64,000 bases of DNA. Source: Patescibacteria group bacterium. Its GTDB lineage: Bacteria > Patescibacteriota > Minisyncoccia > Phycocordibacterales > JACZSL01. The stretch covers positions 5,447-69,446 of the forward strand of contig JACZSL010000001.1 of NCBI GenBank assembly GCA_022574205.1, written 5' to 3'. Within the stretch, counting starts at the first letter, position 1; every line of letters starts with the position of its first letter. The notes under the pieces are model-generated. The model was not told the origin of the DNA. It ran no database searches and saw nothing but the letters and a program-made list of their open reading frames with translations. Shown piece by piece: positions 25,826 to 45,825 of this stretch. Both the position numbers and the translations under genes were made by a program.

Positions 25826-26899
25826 ATGATTATTGATGTTGTAAAAGTCTTTCTTCCTGCTACTGTCGCCTTTTTTATTGGGATGCTAATTACGCCAATA
25901 TTGACGCATTATTTATATAAGTTTAAGGCTTGGAAGAAAAGGGGTGTGCAAGAAACAGTTGATGGTCTCGATAGCCCCATCACTCGCGCGCTTCACCAAG
26001 ATGAAACAAAGAAAACTCCTCGCATGGGGGGTATTGTCATTTGGGGTAGCGCCCTTATAACGACGCTTCTCATCTTCTTTATCTCCAAGCTCTTCCCTGT
26101 AGAGGTGACTCAAAAGTTAGATTTTTTCAGTAGAAATCAAACATGGATTCCTTTTTTTGCACTGCTTGTAGGGGCCGGTGTGGGGCTAATTGATGACATA
26201 TATGAGGTGTCGCAGCGCGGTAGTAGAAGAGCCGGTGGGCTGTCTTTAACTTTTCGCCTTTCTATTGTTGGCGCAGTTGCACTCTTTATTGGCGGATGGT
26301 TTTACTTCAAGCTTGATGTCGTTTCACTGGGTATTCCTTTCTATGGCGACTTCTTTATTGGACCGCTAATTATTCCAGCCTTTATTTTAGTCGCACTGGC
26401 TCTATACGCAAGCGGTATTATTGATGGCATAGACGGACTCTCTGGGGGAGTTTTTGCGGCAATTTTTACAGCATACGCTGCAATTGCTTTTTATCAGCAA
26501 CAAATTGACCTTGCCGCCTTTTCTGCGATGCTCGTTGGGTCAATTCTTGCATTTTTATGGTTTAACATTCCGCCAGCGCGTTTCTATATGTCGGAGACTG
26601 GTACAATGGGGCTGACTCTGACTGTCGCTGTTCTTGCTTTCATGACAGATTCACTTGGAGGAGGTGTTGGTGTATTTGTGCTCCCAATAATTGCTTTGCC
26701 GCTTGTTGTGACAGTGTTGTCGGTTATTATTCAGGTGTTATCGAAAAGATTTCGTGGTGGAAAAACAGTATTTCTAGTCTCACCACTTCATAACCATTTT
26801 CAAGCACTCGGTTGGCCAGGATATAAAGTAACGATGCGATATTGGATCATTAGTATGATTTTTGCAATTTTGGGCGTAATTGTAGCGCTTATTGGCTAA
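25826..26899 (+). CDS. mraY: Phospho-N-acetylmuramoyl-pentapeptide transferase
   Basis: TPRMGG, GLIDD, DGIDGL, FLWFNIPPARFYM, PLHNHF. Confidence 0.93.
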   Translation: MIIDVVKVFLPATVAFFIGMLITPILTHYLYKFKAWKKRGVQETVDGLDSPITRALHQDETKKTPRMGGIVIWGSALITTLLIFFISKLFPVEVTQKLDFFSRNQTWIPFFALLVGAGVGLIDDIYEVSQRGSRRAGGLSLTFRLSIVGAVALFIGGWFYFKLDVVSLGIPFYGDFFIGPLIIPAFILVALALYASGIIDGIDGLSGGVFAAIFTAYAAIAFYQQQIDLAAFSAMLVGSILAFLWFNIPPARFYMSETGTMGLTLTVAVLAFMTDSLGGGVGVFVLPIIALPLVVTVLSVIIQVLSKRFRGGKTVFLVSPLHNHFQALGWPGYKVTMRYWIISMIFAILGVIVALIG

Positions 26900-26905
26900 T
26901 ATGAG

Positions 26906-27187
26906 TCCCGTTAGAGATAACTAATAGTTATGTACTACGTCTATTTGTTAAAAAACAAGAAAGATAAGAAGATGTACACTGGAAGTACCAATAATCTACG
27001 GAAACGCTTGAAGGAGCACAACGATAAGAAGTCTACATGGACTAAGGCGAGTACTCCGTGGCAATTAATATATTACGAAGCGTGTCTAAATGGAGACGAT
27101 GCTAGGTCGAGAGAGAAATATTTAAAATCAGGAACTGGGAAACGTTATCTCAATAATAGAATCAAGCGTTTCCTATCTCTAACGGGA
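26906..27187. mobile_element. 282-bp GIY-YIG-encoding element with 14-bp TIRs inserted at ftsW start codon
   Basis: TCCCGTTAGAGATA (26906-26919) / TATCTCTAACGGGA (27174-27187); TGAG duplicated at 26902-26905 and 27188-27191. Confidence 0.88.
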
Positions 27188-27190
27188 TGA
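26930..27190 (+). CDS. Small GIY-YIG nuclease
   Basis: YYVYLL, MYTGSTNNLRKRLKEHN, LIYYEA, AR.REKYLKSG. Confidence 0.95.
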   Translation: MYYVYLLKNKKDKKMYTGSTNNLRKRLKEHNDKKSTWTKASTPWQLIYYEACLNGDDARSREKYLKSGTGKRYLNNRIKRFLSLTG

Positions 27191-28284
27191 GGCGCACAAC
27201 TATTGACAGGCCATTTCTTGTCATGGTGGTCACTCTTGTGGTACTTGGTTTTTTTATATTTACAAGCGCGTCGCTAGGGCTACTCGCGCGTGATGGAGCA
27301 AGTTTTTCGTCTGTTGCGTTTAGTCAAATTTTTCTCGGCATAGTTCTTGGTACAATAGCGCTCCTAATAAATACGAGAATACATTACTCTTTTTTTAGGA
27401 GGTACTCACTTTTTATCTTTCTACTATCCATTGCTACAACACTCCTTGTCTTTGTCCCTGATCTAGGAGTAGAGATTAATGGTGCGCGCAGATGGGTTGA
27501 TATAGGGCTTGTTTCATTTCAACCAGCTGAATTTTTGAAAATTGGTTTTGTAATATATTTTGCCGCATGGCTTTCGCGTGTCCGCGATAAGATGCACTCT
27601 TTCTCGTATAGTGTTGTTCCTTTTGTTATTCTATTGGGATTTGTTGGGGCAATTCTATTAGCACAGCCGGATACTGGTACTTTTATTGTTATTGTATCAA
27701 CTGGATTTGTTATGTTTTTGGTTGGTGGAGCTAAATGGCGGCACGTGGCAGCTGTTGTCGGCCTTTCAGTTATTAGTGCTGCCACACTCGCACTTACCCG
27801 ACCGTATGTAATGGAGAGGGTGCTGGCCTTTCTTGACCCTTCGAAAGATCCATTGGGCTCAAGCTATCAGATACAACAATCACTCATCGCTATAGGCTCG
27901 GGAGGCCTGTTCGGTAGAGGTTTTGGACAAAGTATCCAAAAGTTTAACTTCCTTCCTGAGCCCGCGAGTGACTCTATTTTTGCCGTTATTGGTGAAGAAT
28001 TTGGCTTTGTTGGGGCTGTTATATTAATCAGTCTTTTTCTTGCGCTGGCGTTGCGTGGCCTTAAAATTGCTTCACGTGCGCCGGATTATTTTAGTGGACT
28101 GCTAGTTGTCGGTATTGTTATACTTATTACGTCGCAATCGTTTATAAACATTGCATCAATGCTCGGTATTTTCCCACTCATTGGACTACCGCTCTTGTTC
28201 GTGAGCCATGGTGGAACTGCTTTTCTGTTTGTACTGTTTGAGGTAGGAATCGTTCTTGGTATTTCGCGGTATATGAAGCGCTAG
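27187..28284 (+). CDS. ftsW: Cell division SEDS protein FtsW
   Basis: GARRW, FQPAEFLK, QPDTGT, YQIQQSLIAIGSGG, LPEPASDSIFAVIGEEFG; between mraY and murG. Confidence 0.93.
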   Translation: MRRTTIDRPFLVMVVTLVVLGFFIFTSASLGLLARDGASFSSVAFSQIFLGIVLGTIALLINTRIHYSFFRRYSLFIFLLSIATTLLVFVPDLGVEINGARRWVDIGLVSFQPAEFLKIGFVIYFAAWLSRVRDKMHSFSYSVVPFVILLGFVGAILLAQPDTGTFIVIVSTGFVMFLVGGAKWRHVAAVVGLSVISAATLALTRPYVMERVLAFLDPSKDPLGSSYQIQQSLIAIGSGGLFGRGFGQSIQKFNFLPEPASDSIFAVIGEEFGFVGAVILISLFLALALRGLKIASRAPDYFSGLLVVGIVILITSQSFINIASMLGIFPLIGLPLLFVSHGGTAFLFVLFEVGIVLGISRYMKR

Positions 28285-28438
28285 CGCGCAAGTCGAAAGT
28301 ATAAAGTACTGGGTATTATGTTGTGGTATGAGACCTGTCTAGGCAGAAATTATGAATAGGCTAAATTATGCATAAACGTAAAGATGACAAGATGAACGTA
28401 TTATTATGTTCATATTATAAGAATAGTTTTCCAATGGG

Positions 28439-29569
28439 ATGAAAATTCTATTTACTGGAGGTGGCACTGGCGGACATTTTTATCCAATTATCGCAGTTGC
28501 TGAGGAGGTGAACGCTATTGCAAGTGAAAAAAAACTTTTAGTTCCCAAGCTTTATTTCATTTCACCAAACCCATTTGACTCAGATTTGCTGTTTAAAAAT
28601 AATATAATTTTTAAGAAAAGTCCTGCCGGAAAAATACGTACATACTTTTCAATTTTAAATTTCTTTGACCTCTTCAAAACAGCATTTGGTTCTATAAAAA
28701 CTGCATTTCAGATATTTTTTATTTACCCGGATGTTATTTTCTGTAAAGGTGGTTACGGATCATTTCCAACAGTACTCGCTTCAAGGCTTTTCAAAATCCC
28801 ACTCGTTGTTCATGAGTCCGATACTGTGCCGGGACGTGTTAATGTGTGGGCTGGAAAATATGCCCGAAAAGTCGCTGTGTCTTTCCCTGAAGCGGCAAAG
28901 TATTTTCCGGAAGACAAAGTTGCCTTAACGGGAGTTCCAATTCGGCGTGAACTTCATACTGTTGCTACTGAGGGTGCTGTTGAGTTTCTTGGACTTGAGG
29001 ACAATGTTCCAGTTGTCCTTATTCTCGGTGGCTCTCAGGGCTCTAAAGTGATTAATGAAATTATCTTAGACGCACTTCCTCAACTTGTAGGAGATTTTCA
29101 GATCATACATCAGGTTGGAAAAGGGAATATTGAAGACGTAAAAAATACAGCTCTCATTGTGCTTGAAGGTAATGAAAATTCCTCTAGGTATCGACCATTC
29201 GATTATTTAAATGCACTTGCGCTCCGCATGGCTGCAGGTGCGGCGGATATTATTGTTTCGCGTGCTGGTGCAAGCGCAATCTTTGAAATAGCCCTGTGGG
29301 GTATTCCAAGTATAATAATTCCTATAAAAGAAGAAGTTTCAAGGGATCAAAGATCAAATGCATTTTCATATGCCAGGAGCGGGGCGGCGGTCGTAGTTGA
29401 AGAAGAAAATCTATCTGTAAGTATTATTGTGTCAGAGATTAGAAGAATTGTTAACAATGCTGAGGTCAGGGAGAGAATGGGGAAATGTGCAAAGCAGTTT
29501 GCCAAAGCTGATGCTGCAAAAAAGATTGCCACAGTACTTATTGATATAGCCTTGGAACATGAGCGATAG
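28439..29569 (+). CDS. murG: MurG N-acetylglucosaminyl transferase
   Basis: GGGTGGHFYP, KGGY, HESD, GGSQG, SRAGA. Confidence 0.96.
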   Translation: MKILFTGGGTGGHFYPIIAVAEEVNAIASEKKLLVPKLYFISPNPFDSDLLFKNNIIFKKSPAGKIRTYFSILNFFDLFKTAFGSIKTAFQIFFIYPDVIFCKGGYGSFPTVLASRLFKIPLVVHESDTVPGRVNVWAGKYARKVAVSFPEAAKYFPEDKVALTGVPIRRELHTVATEGAVEFLGLEDNVPVVLILGGSQGSKVINEIILDALPQLVGDFQIIHQVGKGNIEDVKNTALIVLEGNENSSRYRPFDYLNALALRMAAGAADIIVSRAGASAIFEIALWGIPSIIIPIKEEVSRDQRSNAFSYARSGAAVVVEEENLSVSIIVSEIRRIVNNAEVRERMGKCAKQFAKADAAKKIATVLIDIALEHER

Positions 29570-30932
29570 CAGGATGAATGAGCACATTCCAAAAAAAGGA
29601 CCTGTGGTCACACGTATTGCACCTAGCCCTACGGGGGTACTCCACGTTGGTACGCTTCGAACTGCTTTATTTAATTATTTATACGCTAAAAAATATGGCG
29701 GGAAATTTTTACTACGTATCGAAGATACTGATAAAGGGCGCTCTACAAAAGCGTTTGAACAGGATATTCTGGAGGGTTTAGAGTGGGCCGGATTAAAATT
29801 TGACGGCAAAATAATTCGGCAATCGCAAAGGAATGATATTTATGCTAAATACATAAAAAAACTTATTGATGATGGTAATGCTTATATATCAAAAGAATCA
29901 AAGAAAAATCACCCCAAAGAGAGGATTGAAGTTGTTAGACTTAAGAATCCAAATAAGAAAATAACATTCATTGATTTAGTTCGTGGAGATATAACATTTG
30001 ACACTACAGAACTAAAGGACTTTGTGATTGCTAGAAGTGTAACCGAACCACTGTATCATCTTGCAGTTGTTATTGATGATCATGACATGAATGTAACACA
30101 TGTAATACGTGGGGAAGATCACATTTCTAACACTCCGAGACAAATTTTAATACACGAAGCACTCGGGTTTAAAATACCGAAATACGGACATCTTCCGTTA
30201 ATACTAAATGAAAATAGATCGAAACTTTCCAAGCGGGATGATGCAGCGTCCGTAACTTCATATAAAGATAAGTATCTGCCAGAGGCACTTATTAATTATT
30301 TAGCTCTTCTAGGTTGGAATCCAGGAACAGACCAAGAGATATTTTCACTTTTAGAGCTTATTGAGGCTTTTGAGATTTCAGATGTACAGAGGGGTGGGGC
30401 AATCTTTAATGAAGAAAAACTAAAATCAATAAACCATGAGTATATAAAGAAATTATCCGAAAAGATTTGGAATAAGATCGTTCTGGAAAATCTGCCAAAG
30501 ATAATTACTTCACACAAGTCTTTCGACAATACATTACTTCAAAATATTGCAGGCCAACTTAAGGAACGAGTAAAAACGTTTGAAGAAATACGTAAGTTAA
30601 GCAAGAGTGGGGAACTTAATTTTTATGTGAGGGCGCCCGAATACAATTCTTCTGACCTTGTACCAAAACGTGATTCGGATAGTTCAATAAAACAACACCT
30701 TGAAACACTTATTTTGCTTTTAGGGAAGATTTCTGAAGATAAATTTACAGAAATTAATATCAAAGAAGCTGTTTGGGATTACGCAGAGAAAGAAGGGAAA
30801 GGTTCGATACTTTGGCCAATGCGATTTGCTCTGACAGGGCTGGAAAAATCTCCTGATCCGTTTACTGTTTCCGGAATATTAGGTAAAAGCACGACCCTGG
30901 AAAGGCTGAAAAGCGCCTATCAATCACTTTGA
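29559..30932 (+). CDS. gltX: Glutamate--tRNA ligase
   Basis: RIAPSPTG.LHVG, LRIEDTD, THVIRGEDH, KLSKR. Confidence 0.96.
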   Translation: MSDSRMNEHIPKKGPVVTRIAPSPTGVLHVGTLRTALFNYLYAKKYGGKFLLRIEDTDKGRSTKAFEQDILEGLEWAGLKFDGKIIRQSQRNDIYAKYIKKLIDDGNAYISKESKKNHPKERIEVVRLKNPNKKITFIDLVRGDITFDTTELKDFVIARSVTEPLYHLAVVIDDHDMNVTHVIRGEDHISNTPRQILIHEALGFKIPKYGHLPLILNENRSKLSKRDDAASVTSYKDKYLPEALINYLALLGWNPGTDQEIFSLLELIEAFEISDVQRGGAIFNEEKLKSINHEYIKKLSEKIWNKIVLENLPKIITSHKSFDNTLLQNIAGQLKERVKTFEEIRKLSKSGELNFYVRAPEYNSSDLVPKRDSDSSIKQHLETLILLLGKISEDKFTEINIKEAVWDYAEKEGKGSILWPMRFALTGLEKSPDPFTVSGILGKSTTLERLKSAYQSL

Positions 30933-39172: not shown

Positions 39173-39275
39173 CCCATTAGAACATTATTATTTTAATATT
39201 TGTGCGTAGTAATATGTTCACTTTCCTATCGTTACATATGTACATAATCTCGAATATCCATAATGTCTAACGGGA
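39172..39275. mobile_element. Non-coding relative of the GIY-YIG element abutting a start codon
   Basis: TCCCATTAGAACATTA / TAATGTCTAACGGGA inverted ends; no target duplication visible. Confidence 0.65.
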
Positions 39276-39362
39276 CAAGCCCTATCAGAGAATTATCATC
39301 ACTTTCAACTTTATAACTTTCTACTTCCCACTCGCTCTAGTATACAACACCTTTGTGTTGCG

Positions 39363-43414: not shown

Positions 43415-43599
43415 GATTAAAATTTGACAAAATAATGTTTTTGAGTTACTAGTATATATCAATACTTGTCGCGCCTGCCCTGTTGTGAGCTTGCTCTACT
43501 ATGGGGTTAGAAAGTACGGATATATTAATTTGTTATAAATGCAAAAAAACGGGACACACTGTGTTGTGGTATATTTTAAAAGGATAATTTTCTAATTGG

Positions 43600-45825
43600 A
43601 TGAAGTTGTTAATCGTTGAGTCGCCAGCGAAGGCGAAGACAATTGAAAAATATTTGGGTAGCGAATATCGCGTTGAGGCAAGCATTGGCCATATTCGTGA
43701 TCTCCCAAAAAGTAATAAAAAAGCCATCGACATAGATGGTGGTTTTATTCCGCATTATGAAATATCTAAAGGAAAGGAAAAAATAATAAAAACACTAAAA
43801 AGCCTATCGAGGGAGGCCGAGGAAGTTGTGCTTGCTACTGACCATGACCGCGAAGGTGAGGCGATTGCGTGGCACCTTAAAGAGGTACTTGGTTTAAAGA
43901 ATCCAAAACGCATTGTCTTCAACGAAATCACAAAAGATGCAGTAAGAAATGCTATGGAGAATCCTAGAGAAATTGACGACTCCCTACGAGAAGCGCAAGA
44001 AGCAAGACGTGTACTCGATCGAATTGTCGGATATGAGCTGTCAGGATTGATTTGGAAAAAACTTCGATATGGGTTAAGCGCCGGTCGTGTGCAGAGTCCC
44101 GCACTTCGAATCATTATGGAGCGTGAACGTGAAATACGTAAATTTATTCCAGAAGACTTTTGGGTTGTCACAGCGCTTGTAGAAAATAGGAGAGGGGTGT
44201 CGTTTGAACTTGTTTGTAAAGAAGAGCCGCGCGATGAAAAAAGGATGGAATATATTCTTAAAATTGGTAAACAAGCAGATTGGCTAATAAAAAACACGAA
44301 AGAAAGTGAGGTGAAACGTGCACCGAGAGCTCCATTTATTACTTCGACACTTCAGCAGGTCGCAAGTTCCAGACTGGGCTACTCTCCCTCGAACACCATG
44401 CGTATTGCCCAGAGGCTGTATGAGGCTGGGCATATTACATATATGCGTACTGACAGTACTATTTTAAGTGCCACTGCAAAGACTCAAATCTCTGAGGTTA
44501 TTTTAAAAAAGTACGGCAAGGAGTACTTGGAGTCTCGTGTATATTCCGGAAAGAGCAAGTCAGCACAGGAAGCACACGAGGCTATCAGGCCTACAAATGC
44601 CGCTATAGTTTCAGCCGGTACCTCTCCTGATCAGAAAAAATTATACGACTTAATCTGGGCACGAACAACGGCTAGCCAAATGTCTTCTGCAACTATTGTA
44701 AAAACAAAAATTGTTGTGGAGGTGAAGAGTACCGACATTCCTGATTTTTCTATTAGTGGTTCTCGAGTTAAGTTTTCCGGTTGGCTAAAGGCTGATGTGT
44801 TAGCGCGCAGTGAAGATGTTGAACTTCCTAAAGTAAAAGCAGGTGAAATTCTTGAGTTAAAGAACCTCGACTCTCTCGCGAAGCAAACTCAACCGCTTCC
44901 TCGCTATAGCGAGGCCGGACTTGTTAAAGAATTGGAAAAGCGTGGTATAGGACGCCCAAGTACGTACGCTAGCACAATGAAGACACTTGTTGATCGAGGG
45001 TATGTCGAGAAACGTGGAAAGACGCTCTTTCCAACTGACACAGGGGATGCTGTTAGTAGTTTTCTCGAAAAATATTTTGAAAACTATATAAGTGATTCGT
45101 TTACTTCAAAGATGGAAAGTGAGCTGGACGAGATTGCTGCGGGAAAACGAAAGTATGTTGATACACTAGCTGATTTTTATAAGCCATTCCTAGCAGAGGT
45201 GAAGAATAAAGAGAACGTTGAGAAAATCACTAATCTTGGTGATGCGCCAAAAGAATTTGTTTGTCCAACTTGTAAAAGTTCTATGATTTACAAATTGAGT
45301 AGATCCGGGAAGTTTATGAGCTGTTCAAAATTCCCCGACTGTACTGGCGCACGAACGGTTGAGGGTGTTGCGCTCGAGGGCCCCAAAGAGACTGGGGAAA
45401 GTTGCCCTGACTGCACAAAGGGTAAGCTTATGGAACGTGACGGTAGATTTGGACGTTTTGTTGCATGTGATAAGTACCCGAAATGCCGGTACGTAAAACA
45501 AAGCGAGGAGGCAGTCAAACGCGCCTCAACCGGAATTAAGTGTCCAGTGTGTAAAGTCGGCCTGCCTGCGCCAAGTGAAGCGCGGCAGGCAGGTGAGATG
45601 ATTGAGCGACGAGGTCGCTTTGGTGTTTTCTATAGTTGTTCGAGTTATCCTAAATGTAAGTATGCTATAAAAGCAAAGCCAACTGGTGCTGTGTGCGAAT
45701 ATGATCGTGAAGATAAGGGGGTGTGTAATGCTCTCATGATGGAAGGCACAAAAACAATACCGGAGCGCTGTAGCGATAAAACATGCCCTAATCATAATCC
45801 TCATAAACTCACAAAGGTAGAATAA
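43600..45825 (+). CDS. topA: DNA topoisomerase I with zinc-ribbon C-terminus
   Basis: LIVESPAKAKTI, ATDHDREGE, SAGRVQS, ITYMRTDS, GIGRPSTY, C4 repeats. Confidence 0.98.
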   Translation: MKLLIVESPAKAKTIEKYLGSEYRVEASIGHIRDLPKSNKKAIDIDGGFIPHYEISKGKEKIIKTLKSLSREAEEVVLATDHDREGEAIAWHLKEVLGLKNPKRIVFNEITKDAVRNAMENPREIDDSLREAQEARRVLDRIVGYELSGLIWKKLRYGLSAGRVQSPALRIIMEREREIRKFIPEDFWVVTALVENRRGVSFELVCKEEPRDEKRMEYILKIGKQADWLIKNTKESEVKRAPRAPFITSTLQQVASSRLGYSPSNTMRIAQRLYEAGHITYMRTDSTILSATAKTQISEVILKKYGKEYLESRVYSGKSKSAQEAHEAIRPTNAAIVSAGTSPDQKKLYDLIWARTTASQMSSATIVKTKIVVEVKSTDIPDFSISGSRVKFSGWLKADVLARSEDVELPKVKAGEILELKNLDSLAKQTQPLPRYSEAGLVKELEKRGIGRPSTYASTMKTLVDRGYVEKRGKTLFPTDTGDAVSSFLEKYFENYISDSFTSKMESELDEIAAGKRKYVDTLADFYKPFLAEVKNKENVEKITNLGDAPKEFVCPTCKSSMIYKLSRSGKFMSCSKFPDCTGARTVEGVALEGPKETGESCPDCTKGKLMERDGRFGRFVACDKYPKCRYVKQSEEAVKRASTGIKCPVCKVGLPAPSEARQAGEMIERRGRFGVFYSCSSYPKCKYAIKAKPTGAVCEYDREDKGVCNALMMEGTKTIPERCSDKTCPNHNPHKLTKVE
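45561..45593. repeat. 33-bp palindromic element inserted in frame in topA
   Basis: CCTGCCTGC...GCAGGCAGG; adds about 11 aa (LPAPSEARQAG) relative to the preceding zinc ribbon. Confidence 0.8.

What the first reader, a model, noticed from the sequence alone, without database searches (positions are those of the whole stretch)
26901..27191. Minimal GIY-YIG mobile element that targets and regenerates start codons
Seen: mraY stop-T-ATGAG|TCCCGTTAGAGATA-[86-aa GIY-YIG]-TATCTCTAACGGG|ATGAG-ftsW. Perfect 14-bp TIRs and 4-bp duplication (TGAG). The last A of the right TIR restores the ftsW ATG, and the nuclease stop (TGA) is supplied by the target, giving ATGA translational coupling, so insertion in an essential operon is harmless. 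Knowledge: GIY-YIGs are known from homing endonucleases and Penelope elements; TIR+TSD elements normally encode DDE transposases. Inference: undescribed class of tiny element, the nuclease being either mobiliser or cargo.
Basis: partly seen in the sequence, partly recalled or inferred. Interest (0 to 1): 0.88.

Follow-up and report, generated by a model that had tools for sequence, protein, structure and literature searches.

The report
Tiny nuclease transposon at start codons
A 282-base piece of mobile DNA that carries only a small DNA-cutting enzyme has inserted exactly at the start codon of a cell-division gene and rebuilt that start; it belongs to a large family in ultra-small bacteria that likely uses this enzyme, of a type not known to do so, to move itself.

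Summary
Observation confirmed. Perfect 14-bp inverted ends enclose an intact 86-residue GIY-YIG gene between mraY and ftsW, with ATGAG repeated on both sides and the nuclease stop overlapping the ftsW ATG. It is a real mobile family. About 1,800 GTDB stretches (estimate) carry the left end, mostly Patescibacteria. Of 113 paired elements, 6 carry the nuclease, 107 are gene-less, and none carries another gene. The flanking pentamers match each other, and congeners of one carrier show clean empty sites with a single copy. No empty allele of this ftsW site was found. The nuclease is under purifying selection (dN/dS about 0.17), its clades track different end sequences, and no DDE, IS110 or RT gene was found in this genome with seven models. 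I infer that it is the mobiliser (about 0.65); no biochemistry exists, and four repeat-rich genomes lack it. Corrections: the duplication is 4-8 nt (absent in one subfamily), 'harmless' is inferred, and start-codon targeting cannot be separated from selection. It is not a member of the Ssn family, the nearest published system. Nine paper searches found no description; this scan noted the family before on other DNA.

The parts
25826..26899 (+). mraY-like host gene upstream of the insertion
   Evidence: ORF; PF00953 E 2.1e-19
26901..26905 (+). Left copy of the duplicated target ATGAG (the original ftsW start position); opens a 7-codon peptide that stops at 26924
   Evidence: sequence; flank matching across the family
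26906..26919 (+). Left terminal inverted repeat, 14 nt
   Evidence: I2, 100% complementary
26930..27190 (+). Single-domain GIY-YIG nuclease gene, 86 aa, Slx1-like fold; last codons lie in the right inverted repeat and the stop comes from the target
   Evidence: PF01541 E 3.3e-18; conserved Y5, Y16, G18, R26, H30, E62; model pLDDT 90.8; fold neighbours
27162..27173 (+). Internal 12-nt arm that can pair with 27000-27011 and extend the terminal stem in the predicted single-strand fold
   Evidence: (I5); significance untested
27174..27187 (+). Right terminal inverted repeat; its last A is the A of the ftsW ATG
27187..27191 (+). Right copy of ATGAG: regenerated ftsW start and nuclease stop (ATGA overlap)
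27187..28284 (+). ftsW host gene, intact 365 aa
   Evidence: PF01098 E 4.2e-97
28333..28439 (+). Decayed gene-less family copy ending on the murG start codon
   Evidence: murG by PF03033/PF04101
39172..39275 (-). Gene-less family copy (ACYTG subfamily) ending on a start codon; missing in related strains
   Evidence: joint 39176-39339 in 3 of 4 runs
43464..43600 (+). Decayed gene-less copy ending on the topA start codon; precisely absent in related strains
   Evidence: joint 43463-43600 in 2 of 4 runs; topA by PF01131
57380..57486 (-). Gene-less family copy (ACYTG subfamily) ending on a start codon

Best explanation
This is a full-length copy of a minimal insertion element of about 280 bp that inserts at ATG motifs, duplicates them and so rebuilds the host start codon, and its only gene, an Slx1-like GIY-YIG nuclease, is likely the enzyme that moves it. 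Shown: the ends, the duplication, empty sites in relatives, dozens of gene-less copies per genome, and an intact nuclease under purifying selection. Inferred: in single-stranded DNA the two ends pair into a stem; the nuclease cuts at the foot of that stem and makes staggered nicks at an ATG(A/G)N target; host polymerase and ligase join the ends and fill the gap, which leaves a 4-8 nt duplication (usually 5). Host joining is needed because GIY-YIG enzymes hydrolyse DNA and form no covalent intermediate (established knowledge). In canonical copies the host ATG starts the nuclease and the ATGA overlap would hand ribosomes on to the host gene, so insertions at start codons would be tolerated and the rest purged.
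For: Family: about 1,800 GTDB stretches estimated from 5 of 64 parts scanned; 113 of 124 left ends pair within 400 bp, 6 with GIY-YIG and 107 gene-less. Duplication: the fifth base matches on both flanks, 86/2/2/11, p = 3.7e-11; 28 of 30 unanchored ATG-flanked pairs match over five different pentamers. Empty sites: 4 of 6 congeners of G056 have a clean junction with a single ATGGG; a G016 paralogue and a G020 congener also lack the element; the topA copy is precisely absent in 2 of 4 runs. Two GIY-YIG-bearing copies 87% identical sit at different genes of G016. Enzyme: pN below pS in 210 of 210 pairs, median dN/dS 0.17 over 168 unsaturated pairs; catalytic positions at least 90% conserved in 114 sequences; end classes follow protein clades, 29 changes against 59.9 shuffled, 0 of 200 (quick tree). 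Co-occurrence: 8 of 13 genomes with 3 or more ends have a family nuclease against 1 of 47 with fewer, p = 4e-6. No rve, DDE_Tnp_1, IS110, IS1595, IS1380, IS256 or RT match in this genome. Coupling: the right ATG opens an ORF of 60 aa or more in 57 of 62 against 194 of 734 background sites; 37 of 92 gene-less copies keep the frame open from the left ATG against 16.2 +/- 3.3 shuffled. Precedent: related single-domain GIY-YIG proteins cut single-stranded DNA beside their own flanking repeats (PMC11893778).
Against: No activity is shown. Co-inheritance of ends and gene is also expected for cargo, and the last codons overlap the right end. G001, G011, G030 and G032 hold 8-22 ends but no nuclease of this clade was found, and G053 has only sister-clade ones. 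The ACYTG subfamily inserts with no duplication, which one simple staggered cut does not explain. G.T over A.C bias is 19:5 in this genome (related copies) but 12:6, p = 0.24, in GTDB, and cannot tell single-stranded DNA from RNA. Open frames in gene-less copies may be inherited from the nuclease ORF. The genome is 94% complete and repeats assemble poorly; only nine recombinase or transposase models were tried, and a Y1 transposase and a tyrosine recombinase are present. No circle junction was seen in contigs of 8 runs.
Confidence: 0.65

Rival explanations
1. The element is an ordinary MITE moved in trans by a known type of transposase (DDE, or the resident Y1 enzyme), and the nuclease is selected cargo, for example a maintenance nuclease.
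For: Inverted ends with a 5-bp duplication are typical of DDE elements, and MITEs are moved in trans (PMC3184786, passages). Four genomes have many ends and no family nuclease. A Y1 transposase is present in this genome.
Against: 0 of 124 left ends lead into a transposase while 6 enclose a full GIY-YIG gene (downstream ORFs of the 11 unpaired ends judged by eye, not scanned). Six DDE or IS110 models found nothing in this genome. The Y1 gene has its own unrelated palindromic flanks. No match in plasmids and only one 28-base match (E 0.3) in phages. None of 50 longer homologues carries a transposase, integrase or RT domain. At least five end classes each go with their own nuclease clade.
Confidence: 0.15
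2. The element moves through its RNA, as a Penelope-like target-primed retro-element: the nuclease nicks at ATG and a reverse transcriptase or host polymerase copies the transcript.
For: Fixed right junction, variable duplication length (4-8 nt) and fixed orientation fit target priming. Sense-strand G.T bias in this genome. Copies lie in transcribed leaders.
Against: No RVT_1 match in this genome and no RT fusion among 50 longer homologues. Both ends are precise in 113 of 124 elements. No Rfam match.
Confidence: 0.12
3. It is a free-standing homing endonuclease: it nicks empty alleles and is copied in by homologous recombination, with the repeats serving only to protect host translation.
For: GIY-YIG is a homing nuclease fold (PMC1564403, passages). 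The same cell-division genes are hit repeatedly: ftsW and murG in G030, murG in G011 and G015.
Against: Copies sit at dozens of unrelated genes within one genome, with no flanking homology. Gene-less copies have spread as families. The ftsW allele is not shared with any of 22 relatives in which mraY could be placed.
Confidence: 0.08

Closest known systems
Ssn nucleases with NTS/SRM repeats (SsnA of Neisseria, cd10448; Chenal et al. 2025, PMC11893778)
   Same: Small single-domain GIY-YIG gene flanked by its own repeats, with many gene-less repeats in the genome; the authors compare the layout to insertion sequences and show cutting of single-stranded DNA.
   Different: SRMs are self-folding hairpins; each end here does not fold alone (z -1.0 and -0.6) but pairs with the other end. 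Six NTS-linked homologues form a separate long branch. In the parts I read no target duplication, start-codon insertion or movement is reported.
Bacterial insertion sequences and their MITEs (DDE type; review PMC3184786)
   Same: Terminal inverted repeats, short target duplication, empty and filled sites, autonomous-looking and gene-less copies.
   Different: No DDE gene; 282 bp in all; fixed orientation at an ATG motif; variable duplication length; the host start and stop codons are borrowed.
REP/RAYT and IS200/IS605 (HUH Y1 transposases)
   Same: One small enzyme with many short dependent repeats; proposed single-strand route.
   Different: No HUH or Y1 match in the protein; target duplications are present, which IS200/IS605 do not make (recalled); the RAYT-like gene of this genome has unrelated flanks.
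GIY-YIG-encoding insertions in CPR rRNA genes (PMC11270868)
   Same: Small GIY-YIG genes in non-intron insertions of the same bacteria, scattered over sites; the authors doubt spread by homing.
   Different: The four passages read describe no inverted ends, duplications, gene-less families or insertions at protein genes.
GIY-YIG homing endonucleases and Penelope-like retroelements
   Same: Selfish elements that use a GIY-YIG nuclease to open the target.
   Different: No intron, no DNA-binding domain, no RT; the fold is closer to Slx1 than to I-TevI.

Membership tests
GIY-YIG nuclease superfamily (Slx1-like) | GIY-YIG domain with two Tyr motifs, central Arg and C-terminal Glu | tested here: met
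   PF01541 66 bits over cut-off 22.6; Y5, G18, E62 invariant and Y16, R26, H30 at 90% or more in 114 sequences
GIY-YIG nuclease superfamily (Slx1-like) | Slx1-type fold | tested here: inconclusive
   Best Foldseek rows are 1zg2, Slx1 and HIGLE at probability 1.00, but none reaches E 0.001; profile hit to 1zg2 E 1.3e-8
Ssn family (cd10448) | Protein falls in the SsnA clade | tested here: not met
   Six NTS-adjacent homologues group apart on a long branch (SH-aLRT 93, quick tree) and have a different C-terminus; CDD itself was not available and these six are stand-ins for SsnA
Ssn family (cd10448) | Flanking repeats that are 20-50 nt self-hairpins (SRM) | tested here: not met
   Each end alone folds no better than shuffles
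Ssn family (cd10448) | Sequence-specific cutting of single-stranded DNA | not testable with these tools
   Needs purified protein
DDE insertion sequences | Terminal inverted repeats and target duplication | tested here: met
DDE insertion sequences | DDE transposase encoded between the ends | tested here: not met
   Only GIY-YIG or no gene in 113 paired elements; no DDE domain in 50 longer homologues
DDE insertion sequences | Ends identical to a catalogued IS | tested here: inconclusive
   No match in plasmids and one 28-base weak match in phages; ISfinder not available
MITE | Non-coding, moved in trans | tested here: not met
   This copy encodes a conserved protein; its 35-206 bp derivatives do fit the MITE anatomy
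IS200/IS605 and REP/RAYT | HUH Y1 transposase | tested here: not met
   Protein matches PF01541 and, weakly, PF10544 only
Homing endonuclease elements | One cognate insertion site per element, spread between alleles | tested here: not met
   Close copies at unrelated genes within one genome
Penelope-like retroelements | Reverse transcriptase linked to GIY-YIG | tested here: not met

The most novel reading that the evidence does not exclude
An 86-95 residue GIY-YIG protein is a new class of transposase. It drives a self-mobile element of only about 280 bp, and its lineages have each settled on a self-repairing landing site: start codons (host ATG borrowed, ATGA coupling rebuilt), prepilin cleavage sites (nuclease made as a cleavable pilin leader) and tRNA 5' ends.
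Probability: 0.55. Interest if true: 0.92.

Novelty: categorically new. Interest (0 to 1): 0.8.

Why it matters
Known prokaryotic transposition uses DDE, HUH, serine or tyrosine recombinase, IS110 or RT enzymes (established knowledge). A 280-bp element moved by a lone GIY-YIG domain would add a new chemistry, and would give a function to a large set of 'putative endonuclease' genes (2,232 clusters at E 1e-20 or better, not all of them tested for ends). It would make directly testable the idea, raised for Ssn/NTS, that small GIY-YIG genes spread bacterial repeats. It also explains dozens of gene leaders per genome in Patescibacteria: 54 of 65 loose right-end matches in this 650-kb genome open an ORF. 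An element that lands on ATG and rebuilds it could serve as a compact gene-tagging tool.

Tried and rejected
Empty allele of this ftsW site: none in contigs of 8 of the 24 listed runs; contigs that cross its junctions carry the element. Contigs drop rare variants, so this does not show absence. Circular or excised forms: no such joint seen. Phage carriage: 17 of 17 viral matches to the right end had no left end within 2 kb, so treated as chance; the annotated phage and plasmid collections gave nothing useful. Structured RNA family: no Rfam match at E 1. Preference for promoter-proximal starts: a -10-like hexamer precedes 31 of 97 target sites against 2 of 97 further upstream, but also 99 of 465 crude gene starts in this genome; inconclusive. 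G.T wobble test, prompted by note e1-6990839: mixed. Genus searches around G016 and G055 held no other genome. The second deletion joint (39176-39339) removes 58 extra bases and is not a clean empty site. The careful tree did not finish; the quick tree is quoted. A first pilin-fusion count (4 of 50) came from a faulty pattern and was redone (17 of 50). NCBIfam gave no hit over a cut-off. No complex prediction was run, since no binding claim is made.

Full report
Observation. mraY ends at 26899, one T follows, then ATGAG (26901-26905), a 14-nt arm (26906-26919), an 86-aa ORF (26930-27190), the perfectly complementary arm (27174-27187) and ATGAG again (27187-27191), whose ATG starts ftsW and whose TGA stops the small ORF. 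The three proteins match PF00953, PF01541 (E 3.3e-18) and PF01098. The single strand folds at z = -4.2 because the two ends pair; neither end folds alone.

A family in this genome. The window lies in a 650-kb, 94% complete genome; the relatives that carry the motif are mostly labelled Patescibacteria. The right end plus ATG occurs 19 times exactly against 0 for the reversed control. A looser pattern gives 65 sites against 5, and 54 of the 65 open an ORF of 60 aa or more. One set of gene-less copies (203-206 bp) still aligns to the start and end of the nuclease gene at 70-74% and has ATGAA on both sides. A second set of about 113-136 bp has ATGAA or ATGGA on both sides. A third set of about 101-135 bp has ACYTG on the left and no duplication. 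Four such copies lie in the window, at murG, topA and two other genes. One copy sits inside another at an internal ATGAA, with a decayed left repeat, so a real start codon is not strictly required. This is the only intact nuclease of its clade that I found in the genome.

A family across bacteria. A GTDB scan for the left end returned 123 loci and an estimate of about 1,800 stretches from 5 of 64 parts; a few hits are Planctomycetota or other labels. Of 124 distinct left ends, 113 pair with a right end within 400 bp: 6 enclose a full GIY-YIG gene (277-280 bp) and 107 are gene-less (35-198 bp). The other 11 are contig edges or have a decayed right end followed by what look like host genes, judged by eye. 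For a test not selected by the ends, I took 116 loci of homologues (plus 6), dropped 25 (6 partial, 12 duplicates, 7 at edges) and searched 91 for inverted repeats. Leaving out this copy and three pattern-selected ones, 23 of 25 homologues at 57% identity or more have arms scoring 10 or more (one pair faces outward), and 17 of 25 have an ATG-type direct repeat. Among the 62 more distant ones, 22 have arms scoring 12 or more, of other sequence classes; 31 of all 91 have none.

The duplication is real. The fifth base of the left and right pentamers matches in 97 of 101 informative elements (86/2/2/11, p = 3.7e-11). Among 66 pairs not selected by flank, 55 have ATG on one side (I chose the orientation that favoured it), and 28 of 30 with ATG on both sides match over five pentamers; duplications of 4 and 8 nt also occur. 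Empty sites: the full element of G056 has ATGGG on both sides and compensated ends; 4 of its 6 congeners have a clean junction with one ATGGG, and the other two have unrelated DNA there. A paralogue in G016 and a ligA-like orthologue near G020 also lack the element, at about 60-75% identity, and G016 holds two GIY-YIG-bearing copies 87% identical at different genes. In related strains the topA copy is precisely absent with no duplication (2 of 4 runs, sides 57 and 52 letters, flagged 'between: not known'). For ftsW itself, I examined the best 29 of 60 relatives: mraY could be placed in 22, 7 have a gap of 1-5 nt, the same-family G001 has 2 nt, and none has a gap of the element's size with its ends. 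G030 has an independent gene-less copy on the ftsW start. No empty allele of this site appeared in 8 runs.

Start codons and coupling. The right ATG opens an ORF of 60 aa or more in 57 of 62 testable elements against 194 of 734 other ATGAR sites. In rebuilt empty sites an in-frame stop lies within 30 codons upstream in 73 of 83 against 92 of 242. In the 6 full GTDB copies the left ATG is in frame with the nuclease; 49 of 120 top homologues begin with the peptide read from that junction and 108 of 120 end in LTG or LMG. This copy is 2 nt longer, so the left ATG gives a 7-codon peptide and the nuclease has its own ATG 5 nt after that stop. Gene-less copies keep the frame open from the left ATG to within 12 nt of the right ATG in 37 of 92 cases, against 16.2 +/- 3.3 in 500 shuffles and 13 and 15 in the other frames. 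That fits selection for ribosome hand-over, but descent from the nuclease ORF could also give it, and 55 of 92 copies do without it. 'Harmless' therefore stays an inference, and I cannot separate targeting from purging of other insertions.

Mobiliser or cargo. For mobiliser: it is the only gene between these ends. Its catalytic positions are conserved in an alignment of 114 of the 120 listed homologues. pN is below pS in 210 of 210 pairs of 21 genes, with median dN/dS 0.17 over the 168 unsaturated pairs and the end-overlapping codons left out. End classes follow protein clades: 29 label changes against 59.9 shuffled, 0 of 200, on a quick tree with few columns in which near-copies inflate clustering. 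Of 13 relatives with 3 or more ends, 8 hold a family nuclease, against 1 of 47 with fewer (kin are not independent). Seven models (rve, DDE_Tnp_1, IS110, IS1595, IS1380, IS256, RT) found nothing in this genome. The one Y1 transposase has its own unrelated palindromes, and there is one tyrosine recombinase. None of 50 longer homologues has a transposase, integrase or RT domain. Against: G001, G011, G030 and G032 have 8-22 ends and no nuclease of this clade was found; gene and ends would also travel together if the gene were cargo; and no activity is shown.

Mechanism, inferred. The model (pLDDT 90.8) is nearest to UPF0213, Slx1 and HIGLE structures, though no row reaches E 0.001. Slx1 cuts at junctions of single- and double-stranded DNA (PMC1564403, passages), and SsnA cuts single-stranded DNA beside its own repeat (PMC11893778). 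I therefore propose that the paired ends form a stem in single-stranded DNA, that the nuclease cuts at its foot and nicks an ATG target with a stagger of about 5 nt, and that host enzymes seal and fill. The two arms covary (position 11: 64 A-T, 37 G-C, 2 mismatches of 103), and G.T exceeds A.C 19:5 in this genome but only 12:6 in GTDB. The subfamily without duplication is unexplained. I put 0.65 on the nuclease as mobiliser by a DNA route; the detailed steps are less certain. A sister lineage at 63-69% identity lands on a different motif: 17 of 50 longer homologues run in frame into a pilin G-F-T-x-x-E motif, and L197 shows both a gene-less copy in a pilin leader and a nuclease copy with GTTTA repeats. 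The cleavage-site reading of that motif is recalled, with PF07963 and PF08334 hits in several of these proteins.

What is known. Nine searches of the held library (listings only unless named) found no description of this family; most subscription journals and ISfinder are not covered, and no supplements were read. Of PMC11893778 I read parts 1-2 of 11, section 10 and discussion passages: it defines Ssn as cd10448, flanked by hairpin repeats, and likens the layout to insertion sequences without showing movement in those parts. Six NTS-linked stand-ins branch apart from this protein. Of PMC11270868 I read four passages, of PMC1564403 and PMC3184786 twelve each. This scan has noted the family before on other DNA (52 notes for one query; more). 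Those are unchecked AI notes and not support; I saw them after forming my reading, and one prompted the wobble test.

Verdict. Real, mobile and widespread, with the anatomy of an insertion sequence but none of the known mobilising enzymes tested. It fails membership of each family tested except the GIY-YIG superfamily. Interest 0.8; it would deserve about 0.92 if the nuclease is shown to move it.

Noticed in passing
P0122-P0163; L197: Sister elements with C-type ends are fused in frame to type IV pilin or pseudopilin genes at the G-F-T-x-x-E motif (17 of 50 longer homologues); L197 has a gene-less copy inside a pilin leader with GTTTA repeats.
   Followed up: partly
L026, L253, L019-L021, L025, L032, L035; G000 C11:2352 (L003): Other small GIY-YIG genes sit next to tRNA-like sequences (recognised by eye), several with a partial copy of the tRNA start on their other side; L026 and L253 have 20-22 bp inverted ends.
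   Followed up: no
L033: A small GIY-YIG gene lies inside what looks like a 16S rRNA gene, flanked by complementary arms.
   Followed up: no
window 28275-28439: In runs X10, X11 and X12 a contig joins the end of ftsW, through 40 other letters, to a left end like that of the nuclease element; related strains may carry a different family copy at murG.
   Followed up: no
L289:230-995 (G000 C18): A 237-aa Y1 (RAYT-like) transposase gene flanked by two identical 34-nt palindromes unrelated to the element's ends.
   Followed up: partly
G000 C13:14341, C13:5665, C15:38369, C17:2850, C2:71239-71626: Several gene-less copies contain a second, nested palindromic repeat of about 30 nt, and some contain longer nested hairpin inserts.
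   Followed up: no
G000 C15:50197-50405; L008, L015, L036, L197: Tandem copies joined end to end through a 5-nt spacer, showing repeated insertion at one start codon.
   Followed up: partly
window 29792-30177: In runs X7 and X12, 384 bases inside the 457-aa gene after murG are replaced by 381 other letters, suggesting an allele swap between strains.
   Followed up: no
G000 C19:37741-37908 (L004): A frameshifted GIY-YIG gene of another clade, flanked by a short inverted repeat.
   Followed up: no
L045, L052, L061, L080, L114, L048: Short copies (40-105 bp) with the same ends in genomes labelled Planctomycetota, and C-type pairs in one labelled Syntrophobacter, so the family may reach beyond Patescibacteria; binning not checked.
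   Followed up: no
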